The position numbers are program-made. Source: Escherichia coli O157:H7 (GTDB taxonomy: Bacteria > Pseudomonadota > Gammaproteobacteria > Enterobacterales > Enterobacteriaceae). Taken from it: a stretch of 64,000 bases of DNA. Each line of letters starts with the position of its first letter. The stretch's first letter is position 1. The DNA lies in the NCBI RefSeq assembly GCF_013167455.1, contig NZ_CP038328.1; one strand, written 5' to 3'. Shown one piece after another: positions 3,001 to 6,000 of this stretch.

Positions 3001-6000
3001 GAAGGATGACAGTCACATTTAAAAAATATTTAATCTATAGATCACAATGTAGGGTCATGGAATATATGTATACAACTATTTTCTTCTTCACTTTTAATTA
3101 TCGTATTCATTATAAAACTAAGTTAAAAAACTCCTGGAGAGTGAGTTATTAATATATTTTTAAATGAAATTAAGTTATCATTCATCGATGCATTTTATAG
3201 AATCATCAATGGCCATAATAGTACTATTAACTCTCAATTTTATATTTTTATCATCACTACAAATATTAACTGAATTTATATCAATGATTTTTTTTATTCT
3301 TATCTTTTATTTTATTTACTGTTTCAATGCAATCAGCGGCAAGTTGGAGTGGATTTAGATTTTTCAGATATGGTCTTATGATCTTTCCCTTACTTAATAA
3401 ATAGCATGTATAGGATTCGGAAAGTCCAGCATCTATTTTGTATCTCATTATATTAGATAAGGATGTGAGAAATTCCTTGTTATCATTCGCAGCCATATAT
3501 GCCAGTCCGAGTTCAGCCTCTGCGGCCTTACAGGCAAAATAGCTTAGTGAACACGCTTTTCGTCCCTCTTTAGTACTGGCTGATATTAGTGCCCATAATA
3601 TTGCTTTGTCTGCCAAATCTAACTCTCTCTGAAATTGTCTTGCAGTAACTGCACTCGCAGAAATAGAGAAAAAAATACAATTGTTAATAACCTTGCCATA
3701 TTTTTTAGTCCGTAACTGTTAATGTGCTATCTGGCTCTGAAAATATTAACTCATTTAATTTTTGCATGTCATTAGATAAACCAGTTATACAACCCTCGGA
3801 ACAGAATCGAGGTCCTAAAGACGGACCAAAAGCGTTTAAACAACTATGTATTGAAAATCCATTGCGATTATAAGTTCCTGTATTAACTGACGGTACTAAT
3901 CGTATGCCGTCAGGTTTTCTATTGCTTGCTCCCGGGTCATTAACATTCCAACTCCATAGGCCTTGAGATATTGGCCATCTATTTATAAATGTGTACAACG
4001 GGGATTATTTTTACATTGCATATTATTACCAGAAGCGACTGGAATACTAAGCACATCATAAAAATTATCATCACATGGTATATCTGAAACACACGAAAGC
4101 ATACCTAAAGTTATGCTGTATAAACAGGTGGCTAATCCCAAGGGGATCGATTCCAGAAATCGGGTTCAACGGATACTGATAAAAATTCCACCTACCTTCC
4201 AGCCCAATCGGAGCCTGAGTGTTATACCGCCCCTGCTGCGGTTAATGTTACCGATAATAGTTATAGTACAGCCCTGATTCATCATCATACTACTGCTGCG
4301 GCAGTCTGATGAACTATTGCTTTTACGGATTCTCCTTATTCTTCCTTCTATCCATTCGCTTTAGCTTTTTGAGCTCTTGAAGTTTGCTCTTTGCATCAAT
4401 ATTACCGTTATTTACAGCGAATTCCATCCAATAAATAGCTCTATTCAAATTATAATATTCTGATAATGTTGGATTTGTATCTGATAAAAAGACCCCATAA
4501 TTAAACTGCGCTGTAACATTCCCCTGAGATGCTGATTTTTCTAAGTATCGCAATTGTTTGTAAATGTTATTTTTAGTAAAGCAGTAATATTGATATAGTC
4601 GAAATGATGCCTCTGAATCACCATGTTGTGATTTATACTTCAGTTTCATCAACTTTTCTTCACTTAAATCATAGGTCATTGCTGTAGACCCCATCATACT
4701 TTCGTTTTGTTTTATTTTCACATCAGCACCATGCAATTGACAAATAAAAGAGAAATAAAAAAATAGTAACAAGCATGCTTTCATACATCTACAACCTATC
4801 TTATATCACTGGGTTTTTCTGGCGTACCTTGCATATTAGAAATGGGGTGCCCAGATGGCCCATATGTTATCCAATTACCAAGGTCTTTTGTTGTTATAGC
4901 CATTAGATCCTTATTTGAATTAAGGTTCGTTGGTGCTGTTAGCACTGTATCCATTTTTAACTTACCATTAGTTCCTCGCCCCCACCACGTCCATAGCGTG
5001 TCAGGTCCTATTACATTTGTATGTAACTCTTTAGCTAATTGGCTAGCAAATGAATTTTGTCCTTTACCTGTATTACAAGAAAATAACCAAACTGTCATCC
5101 CATCTTTATAATTCCCATCAAATTTAATTAGATATGCTAGATCTTTAGCTGTCATGATACTGCGCGTTGCGGATTCAATAGATGTGGGGGTACCATGCCC
5201 CCCGATTGTGAAAACGCCTGGGATATTAATCTCATCAGCTACAGAATGGATAAGATCACTTTCGGGGTATAAATTTATATCAACCAAACCTTGCGGATCT
5301 ACATTTATGACCGGATTCAACGGATACTGATAAAAATTCCATCCCCCCTTCAGTCCAATCGGATCCTGAGTGATATATCGCCCGTGCAGCGGGTCATAAT
5401 AGCGGTGGCGGTTGTAATACAGGCCGGACTCCTCATCATACTGCTGCCCCGGCAGGCGGATAAGCTGCTGCAGCTGATGCGGGTTCTCTTCATTCAGCAG
5501 GTTGCCCCATTCATCGTATTCTGCGCACCATTCTGTTGCCCCTTCCGCACTGATAAGCGCCAGCGGCAGGCCGCGATGGTCGCAGTGGTACAGGTGGATT
5601 TTTCGCGCCGGCGTGTATACCGGGTCCATCTGGCTTTGCATCTGCGCCACAGTCAGGCCGCACGATGCCAGCCAGCGGCGGCTTTCCTCACTCACCCGGT
5701 CAGCCAGGATTTCACTTTCCAGCCGGTCGAGCATCTGCACCAGCACCGGCGGGAACACCACACTGCCACCGTCTTCGCCGCCGGACTGCTGAAGCGCATC
5801 CGCCAGGCTGCGGCGCTGCGTTTTCGCCAGCTCACCGGTGGCGGTTTCAACCCTGATGAGTGGCGTGAAGCTCCCCGGCTGATAAATCGTCTGGATGCGG
5901 GTTCTGTCGTTCTGTATTGTGGTCAGCCGGTCGCCGTCCCAGCCGTACCAGGTCACTTGCGGTTTCCGTGACAGCGACATCCAGCCCGTCAGGTCCCGTT

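What the first reader, a model, noticed from the sequence alone, without database searches (positions are those of the whole stretch)
3281..3699. Second Sel1-like immunity-type gene that appears split by a frameshift
A 26-codon ATG-initiated ORF with a signal-peptide-like start (MARLLTIVFFSLFL..., 3699..3619) terminates, and one nucleotide out of frame a 111-codon Sel1-like ORF continues (3616..3281) with only a TTG available as start. This is consistent with an orphan immunity gene for the orphan toxin that has been inactivated by a frameshift, or with an unusual start. Orphan immunity genes can protect against toxins delivered by other strains, so whether it is intact matters.
Basis: seen in the sequence. 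Interest (0 to 1): 0.4.

Follow-up and report, generated by a model that had tools for sequence, protein, structure and literature searches.

The report
Twice-frameshifted Imm57 immunity pseudogene (yibV)
This is the E. coli yibV locus: the dead remnant of a periplasmic Imm57-family immunity gene, broken by two single-base slips in T and A runs, next to an equally broken cell-wall toxin remnant at the end of an Rhs locus; it is ordinary and already annotated as a pseudogene.

Summary
The two ORFs exist exactly as described (26 codons, 3699..3619; 111 codons, 3616..3281; minus strand, one base out of frame). The frameshift reading is right, but "Sel1-like" is wrong and half the damage was missed.

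- **Family:** the gene belongs to Imm57 (Pfam PF15596, 164 bits; no Sel1 hit).
- **Extent:** it spans 3699..3178.
- **Intact form:** 173 aa, made of a Sec-type signal peptide plus an all-alpha domain with six conserved cysteines.
- **Lesion 1:** T8→T7 at 3675..3669 cuts the signal peptide from the mature domain.
- **Lesion 2:** A7→A8 at 3295..3288 removes the last 36 residues, including two conserved cysteines.
- **Repair test:** undoing both slips gives a protein identical to WP_000113243.1, which is annotated intact in other E. coli.
- **TTG:** it is an internal residue of a conserved motif, not a start.
- **Signal peptide:** 96 of 105 full-length relatives have a signal-peptide-like N-terminus.
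- **Frequency:** the T7 allele is in 3,240 of 5,426 complete genomes. RefSeq already labels it "Imm57 family immunity protein, frameshifted".
- **K-12:** the 111-aa ORF is UniProt YibV.
- **Partner:** the upstream Tlde1-type Rhs toxin tip also carries two frameshifts.

Verdict: a real, known, decayed toxin–immunity module of low interest.

The parts
3178..3699 (-). Whole Imm57-family immunity pseudogene: 522 nt, equivalent to a 173-codon gene. It carries two compensating single-base frameshifts, so the first and last segments share the ATG frame.
   Evidence: PGAP annotates the identical sequence (L001 6062..6583) as 'Imm57 family immunity protein, frameshifted'. Repairing both lesions gives a protein identical to WP_000113243.1.
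3619..3699 (-). 26-codon ATG ORF. Its first 10 residues (MARLLTIVFF) are the n-region and part of the h-region of the true Sec-type signal peptide. The remaining residues are out-of-frame junk ending at TAG.
   Evidence: Intact alleles read MARLLTIVFFFSISASAVTA|RQ or MARLLTIVLFFSISANAVTV|NQ.
3669..3675 (-). T7 run: frameshift 1 (T8→T7, -1 nt). It separates the signal peptide from the mature domain.
   Evidence: Intact window-type alleles L017-L022 have GTA+T8. T7 with exact flanks is in 3,240 genomes and T8 in 38.
3281..3616 (-). 111-codon TTG ORF, identical to UniProt YibV (YIBV_ECOLI). It corresponds to residues 29-137 of the 173-aa protein plus 2 out-of-frame codons (NH) and a TGA.
   Evidence: Pfam Imm57 at 164 bits, profile positions 1-100 of 100. 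The exact-sequence look-up names it 'Protein YibV'.
3288..3295 (-). A8 run: frameshift 2 (A7→A8, +1 nt). It truncates the C-terminus.
   Evidence: A8 with exact flanks is in 1,003 of 3,379 genomes. Most of the rest are one base off, and all 37 sampled rows in that band span 98 nt, consistent with A7.
3178..3288 (-). Displaced C-terminal tail, IIDINSVNICSDDKNIKLRVNSTIMAIDDSIKCIDE*, in the ATG frame. It holds conserved Cys147 and Cys170.
   Evidence: C147 is conserved in 99% and C170 in 94% of 106 family members. The AF2 model has pLDDT >=95 over residues 131-170.
3705..4289 (-). Orphan Rhs C-terminal fragment: core end ...[10 protein letters not shown] followed by a Tlde1 / L,D-transpeptidase-like toxin domain. 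It is degraded by internal stops in the core remnant, a +1 at about 4146, a 9-nt in-frame deletion at about 4032, and a -1 at about 3985. The catalytic His (3848..3846) and Cys (3791..3789) codons survive in the 97-codon ORF 3998..3705.
   Evidence: The alignment to the continuous orphan ORF of L004 is. Pfam Tlde1_dom scores 34.2 bits for the intact L004 domain and 17.2 bits for the window's 97-aa piece. PGAP annotates only a pseudo Rhs core here.

Best explanation
Window 3699..3178 (-) is the last gene of the rhsA-locus array of an O157:H7-like E. coli. It is a pseudogene of an Imm57-family immunity protein.

**Intact form.**
- The protein is 173 aa, with a Sec-type signal peptide (about 20 residues).
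- The mature part is a single all-alpha domain of about 150 residues with six conserved cysteines.
- It is exported to the periplasm. There it neutralises the Tlde1-type (L,D-transpeptidase-fold, peptidoglycan-targeting) toxin domain encoded immediately upstream as an Rhs C-terminal tip.

**Lesions in this window.**
1. T8→T7 at 3675..3669 disconnects the signal peptide from the mature domain. This produces the 26-codon ORF.
2. A7→A8 at 3295..3288 removes the last 36 residues, including two of the six cysteines. This produces the 111-codon ORF, known as K-12 YibV.

Anything translated from the internal TTG would stay in the cytoplasm and lack part of the fold. It therefore could not protect against a toxin that acts in the periplasm. 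The cognate orphan toxin is also dead (two frameshifts), so the whole module is a decaying relic.

**Shown here:** the gene family, the two lesions and their exact repair, their population frequencies, the family-wide signal peptide and cysteines, and the Tlde1 neighbourhood.

**Inferred:** periplasmic location, neutralisation by binding, and the non-function of the fragments.
For: **Family and annotation.**
- Pfam Imm57 at 164 bits against a cutoff of 25.
- PGAP labels the gene 'Imm57 family immunity protein, frameshifted' in an identical strain, a K-12-like strain and another strain.

**Lesions.**
- Alignment to intact alleles locates both lesions.
- Adding one T and removing one A yields a 173-aa protein identical to WP_000113243.1 of O121 RM8352 and soil strain T2.
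- That exact sequence is on 580 contigs as 'MULTISPECIES: Imm57 family immunity protein'.

**Family-wide features.**
- 177 representative clusters were found; full-length members are 160-200 aa.
- 96 of 105 have an N-terminal hydrophobic signal-like segment.
- The six Cys are 86-100% conserved, including C147 and C170 in the lost tail.
- The AF2 model has pLDDT 93.9 and pTM 0.85, is all-alpha, and places the tail inside the domain.

**Toxin partner.**
- Tlde1_dom ORFs lie directly upstream of Imm57 in L004, L007 and L011.
- Zhang et al. 2012 pair Imm57 with Tox-LD-peptidase on Rhs/T6SS toxins (PMC3482391).
- Tlde1 is toxic only in the periplasm, and its immunity proteins carry Sec signals or TM segments (bioRxiv 10.1101/2020.02.18.954545).

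**Population.**
- T7 is in 3,240 genomes.
- A8 is in 1,003 genomes.
Against: - No experiment shows that the fragments are inactive.
- yibV RNA is detected in K-12 RNA-seq (PMC11228462).
- A weak GAGAG Shine-Dalgarno-like element lies 6-7 nt before the TTG (duplex -4.8 kcal/mol), so some translation of the 111-aa fragment cannot be excluded.
- Apart from the two indels the gene shows no further decay: dN/dS against the intact allele is 0.36 and all conserved residues are retained. The inactivation is therefore recent or slow-decaying, and each lesion could revert by a single slippage event.
- Binding of Imm57 to Tlde1-type toxins has not been shown biochemically for this family. It is inferred from gene neighbourhood.
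Confidence: 0.88

Rival explanations
1. The T and A homopolymer runs act as a reversible mutational ON/OFF switch (contingency locus) for an orphan immunity gene. Most strains are OFF, and T7→T8 / A8→A7 revertants are selected when Tlde1-armed competitors are met.
For: - Tract-length variants T6, T7 and T8, and A6, A7 and A8, all occur among near-identical alleles.
- Intact T8+A7 alleles occur in unrelated backgrounds: O121:H19, O6:H16, O157:H16, and soil, swine, chicken and human isolates.
- Apart from the indels the ORF is undamaged.
Against: - T7 is found in 3,240 of 3,381 window-type genomes, against 38 with exact T8 plus at least 22 with the R3K T8 variant.
- A second disabling lesion (A8) has accumulated in about 30% of genomes, as expected for neutral decay rather than a maintained switch.
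- Runs of 7-8 bases are short for efficient phase variation.
- No full-length Rhs carrying this toxin tip was found that could supply the selective pressure.
- Some tract differences could be long-read assembly errors.
Confidence: 0.06
2. The 111-aa YibV ORF is a genuine gene with an unusual TTG start (or an ATT start further upstream). It encodes a signal-less cytoplasmic protein with a retained or new function.
For: - UniProt and EcoCyc still list yibV as a protein-coding gene.
- Transcript is detected.
- A weak SD-like GAGAG lies upstream of the TTG.
- Some GenBank annotations call a 169-aa protein from an ATT start in T7+A7 strains (P0008/P0230).
Against: - The TTG is an internal residue of a conserved motif, and relatives run 170-190 aa with N-terminal signal-like segments.
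- Six conserved cysteines point to a disulfide-bonded periplasmic fold, and the fragment keeps only four.
- Its C-terminus is not conserved among strains: A6, A7 and A8 give different ends.
- PGAP treats the gene as a pseudogene.
Confidence: 0.04
3. Recoding restores a full-length protein from this allele: ribosomal -1 frameshifting or transcriptional slippage at U7, and again at A8.
For: Both lesions lie in homopolymer runs, the kind of sequence on which polymerases and ribosomes can slip. The two shifts cancel (-1 and +1), so the first and last segments share a frame.
Against: - Intact alleles and all distant homologs are encoded in one frame, so the two-frame layout is not conserved.
- Two independent low-efficiency events would be needed.
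- No Rfam frameshift element was found.
Confidence: 0.02
4. The apparent frameshifts are sequencing or assembly errors in homopolymers of this particular window.
For: Homopolymer runs are error-prone, and rare variants (T6, A6) in single assemblies may well be errors.
Against: The identical T7 context is in 3,240 complete genomes and the A8 context in 1,003. These include K-12 MG1655 derivatives and many independent O157:H7 assemblies.
Confidence: 0.01

Closest known systems
Imm57 family (Pfam PF15596; Zhang et al. 2012, PMC3482391): predicted immunity proteins of polymorphic toxin systems, paired with Tox-LD-peptidase toxins
   Same: - HMM match far above the cutoff.
- Mostly-alpha fold.
- Conserved D, SE and C positions (D90, S94-E95, C99).
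- Located immediately downstream of an LD-peptidase/Tlde1 toxin tip on an Rhs element.
   Different: - This copy is a pseudogene with two frameshifts.
- The Pfam model covers only about 100 central positions. It starts exactly at residue 1 of the YibV fragment.
- The conserved mature domain found here is about 150 residues with six cysteines, preceded by a signal peptide.
E. coli K-12 yibV (b4615; UniProt YIBV_ECOLI, 'Protein YibV', 111 aa)
   Same: The window's 111-aa ORF has exactly this amino-acid sequence and sits in the same position between yibG and yibH.
   Different: Databases treat YibV as an uncharacterised protein. The evidence here, and RefSeq PGAP, show it is the middle fragment of a frameshifted Imm57 gene.
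Tlde1/Tldi1 effector-immunity pairs of Salmonella SPI-6 T6SS (Sibinelli-Sousa et al.; Tlde1a structure PMC9638812)
   Same: - The toxin domain family is the same (Tlde1_dom/DUF2778, with an H...C catalytic motif).
- The toxin acts on peptidoglycan in the periplasm, so the immunity protein must be exported.
   Different: - The immunity protein there is DUF2195 (Tldi1), unrelated to Imm57.
- The toxin there is a stand-alone T6SS effector. Here it is an Rhs C-terminal tip, and it is degraded.
Orphan rhs-CT/immunity modules downstream of main rhs genes (for example K-12 yibJ-yibG)
   Same: - Arrayed after the main rhs gene.
- The orphan begins with a fragment of the conserved Rhs core ending in the PxxxxDPxGL motif.
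- It is followed by its own immunity gene.
   Different: Both toxin and immunity are inactivated in this strain. Other E. coli keep one or both intact (L004, L015, L016, L017).
Sel1-repeat immunity proteins (YibG, window 4784..4323)
   Same: Small, alpha-helical and signal-peptide-bearing, encoded after an Rhs toxin tip in the same locus.
   Different: No sequence relationship (no Sel1 hit at E<=1) and no significant match to any solved structure, Sel1/TPR included.

Membership tests
Imm57 (PF15596) | Match to the family HMM above the gathering score | tested here: met
   164.1 bits for the 111-aa ORF and 150.7 bits for the intact allele, against a cutoff of 25.
Imm57 (PF15596) | Immediate neighbour of a Tox-LD-peptidase / Tlde1-domain toxin in a polymorphic toxin locus | tested here: met
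   - The window has a degraded Tlde1 tip ending 5 nt before the ATG.
- Intact pairs occur in L004, L007 and L011, with Tlde1_dom at 34.2, 35.7 and 31 bits against a cutoff of 30.1.
Imm57 (PF15596) | Mostly alpha fold with conserved D, SE and C (Zhang et al. 2012) | tested here: met
   - The AF2 model is all-alpha with pLDDT 93.9.
- D90 is conserved in 99%, E95 in 87%, C99 in 95% and C124 in 100% of family members.
Imm57 (PF15596) | Neutralises the cognate toxin | not testable with these tools
   Needs co-expression or competition assays.
Functional (intact) gene | One uninterrupted reading frame from the signal peptide to the conserved C-terminal Cys | tested here: not met
   There are two frameshifts relative to intact alleles: T7 instead of T8 and A8 instead of A7.
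Sel1 repeat (PF08238) | Match to the Sel1 repeat HMM, or a TPR-like repeat fold | tested here: not met
   - No Sel1 hit at E<=1 for the ORF or for the intact protein.
- Foldseek against the PDB gives no hit better than E=0.5.
Tlde1 / DUF2778 toxin (PF10908), for the upstream partner | HMM match above cutoff and the catalytic His...Cys motif | tested here: inconclusive
   - The window's 97-aa piece scores 17.2 bits, below the cutoff of 30.1.
- It keeps H (HSC) and C (SEGC).
- The 87%-identical intact L004 domain scores 34.2 bits.
Programmed frameshift / recoding site | Two-frame arrangement and slippery site conserved in homologs | tested here: not met
   Intact E. coli alleles and 105 distant full-length homologs are single-frame.
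Phase-variable contingency locus | Tract-length polymorphism that switches the ORF on and off, with both states maintained | tested here: inconclusive
   - T6/T7/T8 and A6/A7/A8 variants exist.
- OFF predominates: 3,240 T7 against 38 exact T8 plus at least 22 R3K T8.
- A second lesion accumulates in about 30% of genomes.

The most novel reading that the evidence does not exclude
The T8 and A7 runs make this orphan Imm57 gene a slippage-prone, revertible switch. The widespread 'pseudogene' would then be a reservoir that single-base reversions can re-arm against Tlde1-type Rhs toxins. That would explain why the ORF is otherwise undecayed and why intact T8+A7 alleles are scattered across unrelated lineages.
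Probability: 0.06. Interest if true: 0.5.

Novelty: already known. Interest (0 to 1): 0.15.

Why it matters
The practical value is small and mostly concerns annotation.

- **Strain phenotype.** This O157:H7-like strain, and K-12, almost certainly lack Imm57-mediated protection against Tlde1-type Rhs toxins.
- **K-12 y-ome.** The gene yibV (UniProt 'Protein YibV') should be treated as the middle fragment of a twice-frameshifted pseudogene, not as an uncharacterised protein.
- **Pfam model.** PF15596 appears to cover only the part of the domain that survives in that fragment. It misses the N-terminal RE.RE motif and a C-terminal region of about 45 residues with two near-invariant cysteines.
- **Comparative material.** Roughly one in ten locus-bearing E. 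coli appear to keep an intact copy. These offer natural comparisons for anyone testing Imm57/Tlde1 specificity.

Tried and rejected
- **Sel1 membership:** rejected. There is no Sel1 HMM hit and no significant match to any solved structure.
- **NCBIfam scan:** only noise, HisIE at E=0.015.
- **PDB sequence search for Imm57:** nothing credible, best E=0.015 to an unrelated enzyme.
- **Foldseek against the PDB with a pLDDT-94 model:** no hit with E<0.5, so no solved relative exists.
- **Search for a full-length Rhs protein carrying this toxin tip:** only fragments of 80-250 aa were found. The spread of E. coli DNA hits showed only orphan or pseudo annotations.
- **Promoter and terminator scan of 2700..4900:** 11 promoter-like sites against 10.1 expected, and 0 terminators. 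This was uninformative.
- **Rfam scan of 2600..4900:** no family.
- **First T8 count:** it used a 100-nt query, so one gap still scored 99.0% and the identity bands were not diagnostic. It was repeated with 99 nt.
- **First idea on the 5' lesion:** that it was loss of the C in GTG-CTTTTTTT, based on the divergent allele L004. This was refined once window-type intact alleles with GTA+T8 were found.
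Full report
**1. The observation**

On the minus strand, the ORF listing reports a 26-aa ATG ORF at 3699..3619 (MARLLTIVFFSLFLRVQLLQDNFRES). It also reports a 111-aa TTG ORF at 3616..3281. Their starts are 83 nt apart, so the second ORF lies in the -1 frame relative to the first.

Translating all three frames shows that the frame of the 111-codon ORF is open well upstream of its TTG. It reads ...NNCIFFSISASAVTARQFQRELDLADKAILW. The only thing separating 'MARLLTIVFF' from 'FSISASAVTA-RQFQ...' is one base in or next to the T7 run at 3675..3669. 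The coordinates and the out-of-frame relationship are therefore confirmed.

**2. What the gene is**

The 511-nt region is 100% identical to O157:H7-type genomes and ≥99% identical in 3,300 complete E. coli genomes, always chromosomal. RefSeq/PGAP annotates it as 'Imm57 family immunity protein', flagged 'frameshifted', spanning 522 nt. That span corresponds to window 3699..3178, which is 103 nt beyond the end of the 111-codon ORF.

- Pfam places the 111-aa ORF in Imm57 (PF15596) at 164 bits, covering profile positions 1-100 of 100. There is no Sel1 hit at E≤1.
- The real Sel1-like gene is its neighbour yibG (4784..4323).
- The exact 111-aa sequence is UniProt YIBV_ECOLI, 'Protein YibV'. The K-12 y-ome literature still lists it as an uncharacterised gene 'surrounded by pseudogenes' (PMC11551758).

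**3. Two lesions, not one**

Alignment with intact 173-codon alleles shows both lesions.

| Lesion | Window coordinates | Change | Effect |
|---|---|---|---|
| 1 | 3675..3669 | T8→T7 (-1 nt) | Separates the signal peptide from the mature domain |
| 2 | 3295..3288 | A7→A8 (+1 nt) | Shifts the last 36 codons (IIDINSVNIC...SIKCIDE*, 3288..3178) back into the ATG frame |

Adding one T and removing one A gives a 173-aa protein. It is identical in amino-acid sequence to WP_000113243.1, annotated intact in O121 strain RM8352 and in soil strain T2. At the nucleotide level there are 1-2 differences. That exact protein is on 580 contigs of the large collection, as 'MULTISPECIES: Imm57 family immunity protein'.

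**4. Does the family normally have the signal peptide and the tail?**

An exhaustive HMMER search found 177 representative clusters with E≤0.001. Most listed members are 160-200 aa and align to residues ~5-20 through ~170 of the intact protein.

- 96 of 105 full-length representatives have a hydrophobic, usually K/R-preceded, N-terminal segment.
- The window's TTG 'Met' corresponds to the [L/M] inside the conserved RE.RE[IL].[ML]A[ED].AI[FL]W motif, so it is not a start.
- All six cysteines are conserved at 86-100%. These include C147 (99%) and C170 (94%), which lie in the tail lost here.
- An AlphaFold2 model built on a 99-sequence alignment is very confident (pLDDT 93.9, pTM 0.85). It is all-alpha and places residues 138-170 within the domain at pLDDT ≥95.
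- Neither sequence search nor Foldseek finds a solved relative, and nothing Sel1/TPR-like is significant.

**5. The partner toxin**

Immediately upstream, with its TAA at 3707..3705 only 5 nt before the ATG, lies an orphan Rhs C-terminal fragment.

In strain MSB1_8B (L004) this is one continuous frame...[38 protein letters not shown]...HSC...SEGC...TVTD. It has a Tlde1 domain scoring 34.2 bits against a cutoff of 30.1.

In the window it is broken in several places:
- internal stops in the core remnant;
- a +1 insertion near 4146;
- a 9-nt in-frame deletion near 4032;
- a -1 deletion near 3985.

The catalytic His and Cys codons survive in the 97-codon ORF 3998..3705.

Distant Imm57 genes also sit directly after Tlde1-domain ORFs: L007 at 35.7 bits and L011 at 31 bits, the latter with an Rhs-repeat ORF further upstream. 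A 55%-identical homolog lies in a toxin-less island with Rap1a- and MafI2-type immunity genes.

This matches the literature. Zhang et al. 2012 link Imm57 to Tox-LD-peptidase toxins on Rhs/T6SS systems. The Tlde1 work shows the toxin kills only from the periplasm, and that its immunity proteins carry Sec signals or TM segments.

**6. Mechanism**

Shown here:
- family membership;
- the anatomy of both lesions;
- the family-wide signal peptide and cysteines;
- the toxin neighbourhood.

Inferred:
- the intact protein is exported by Sec;
- it folds with disulfides in the periplasm;
- it blocks the L,D-transpeptidase-like toxin there.

In the window, the signal peptide is uncoupled from the mature domain and the fold is truncated. 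Any product from the TTG (weak GAGAG upstream) or from the ATT codon at 3688..3686, which some annotations use as a start (P0008/P0230), would be cytoplasmic or poorly exported and incomplete. I therefore rate it non-protective. yibV RNA is detectable in K-12, which does not bear on function.

**7. Population picture (5,426 complete genomes)**

| Allele state | Genomes |
|---|---|
| Locus present | about 3,690 |
| Window-type, T7 with exact flanks | 3,240 of 3,381 |
| Window-type, A8 with exact flanks (includes K-12 and O157:H7) | 1,003 of 3,379 |
| Window-type, 3' 99-mer at 95-99% identity (all 37 sampled rows at 99.0% span 98 nt, consistent with A7) | 2,327 |
| Window-type, T8 with exact flanks | 38 |
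| Window-type, T8 with an R3K substitution (WP_021557323.1, intact in the two checked, L021/L022) | at least 22 |
| Divergent allele (93% identity) | about 316 |
| Divergent allele with a 5-nt deletion | 36 of 316 |

The remaining ~280 divergent alleles showed no length change at the two diagnostic sites in the sampled rows. Roughly one in ten locus-bearing genomes therefore appears to keep an intact gene. This is an estimate from the diagnostic 99-mers and sampled rows, not a full count.

Every combination of intact and broken toxin and immunity occurs. L015 has an intact orphan immunity gene with no annotated toxin. L016 has an intact toxin ORF with a frameshifted immunity gene.

dN/dS between the repaired window allele and the divergent intact allele is 0.36, from 35 nt and 17 aa differences. 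Apart from the two indels there is little decay.

**8. Rivals**

- **Reversible homopolymer switch.** This is the only mildly interesting alternative. Tract variants T6/7/8 and A6/7/8 exist, and intact alleles are scattered across lineages. However, OFF predominates heavily and a second lesion has accumulated in about 30% of genomes, which looks like neutral decay.
- **Recoding.** Disfavoured because homologs are single-frame and two events would be needed.
- **Functional truncated YibV.** Disfavoured by the missing signal peptide and cysteines, and by a C-terminus that varies among strains.
- **Sequencing error.** Excluded by thousands of independent assemblies.

**9. Verdict**

This is a real feature that RefSeq already explains. 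Novelty: already known. Interest: low.

Noticed in passing
window 3705..4289 (-): The orphan Rhs-CT/Tlde1 toxin next to the finding is itself degraded. It has internal stops in the core remnant, a +1 near 4146, a 9-nt in-frame deletion near 4032 and a -1 near 3985. The catalytic His (3848..3846) and Cys (3791..3789) codons persist. PGAP annotates only the 219-nt Rhs-core piece and leaves the toxin domain unannotated.
   Followed up: yes
window 4796..9025 (-) and 4323..4784 (-): The main 1409-aa Rhs protein ends in a C-terminal tip that is followed by yibG. In K-12-like strains the sequence at this position is only an orphan pseudogene (yibJ) downstream of rhsA-yibA. This was inferred from matching locus coordinates, not from an alignment. 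The O157-type locus therefore appears to have the yibJ-type tip on the main gene and to lack the rhsA-CT/yibA pair. The last 167 residues of the tip hit no Pfam family.
   Followed up: partly
Pfam PF15596 vs window 3281..3616: The Imm57 Pfam model (100 positions) begins exactly at residue 1 of the YibV fragment and ends within it. The family alignment here shows conserved sequence about 8 residues further N-terminal (the RE.RE motif) and about 45 residues further C-terminal, with two near-invariant Cys. The model appears to under-cover the domain, possibly because it was delimited on the K-12 pseudogene fragment.
   Followed up: partly
L012 6217..8528 (also L013, L014): The 55%-identical Imm57 homolog P0037 sits in a toxin-less cluster of small genes. 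The cluster includes a second weak Imm57, a Rap1a-like gene and a MafI2-like gene, between housekeeping genes. It looks like an orphan poly-immunity island.
   Followed up: no
L016 730..1658 (NZ_AP022087): About 36 of the 316 genomes with the divergent allele have a 5-nt deletion in the Imm57 3' region, giving a frameshift. In L016 an apparently intact 135-aa tlde1-domain ORF is retained upstream. Orphan tips lack the Rhs delivery part.
   Followed up: partly
proteins P0008, P0230: In T7+A7 strains some GenBank annotations call a 169-aa 'Imm57 family immunity protein' beginning MNNCIFFSIS... This requires an ATT start codon inside the frameshifted signal peptide, and it masks the frameshift in protein databases. 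The representative of the 788-member cluster, P0008, is such a 169-aa call.
   Followed up: partly
protein P0044 (148 aa, E. coli): This is a chimeric ORF in which the end of an Rhs core (...[11 protein letters not shown]) is fused directly to the Imm57 C-terminal tail (SDKNKKIIDINSVNIC...KCIDE). It implies a deletion with one end in or near the poly-A run in at least one genome.
   Followed up: no
window 1218..2719 (+): yibI (DUF3302) and yibH (HlyD family) flank the locus on the low-coordinate side, and mtlA lies beyond them in the identical strain. This fixes the window as the rhsA-mtlA region of an O157:H7-like chromosome.
   Followed up: yes
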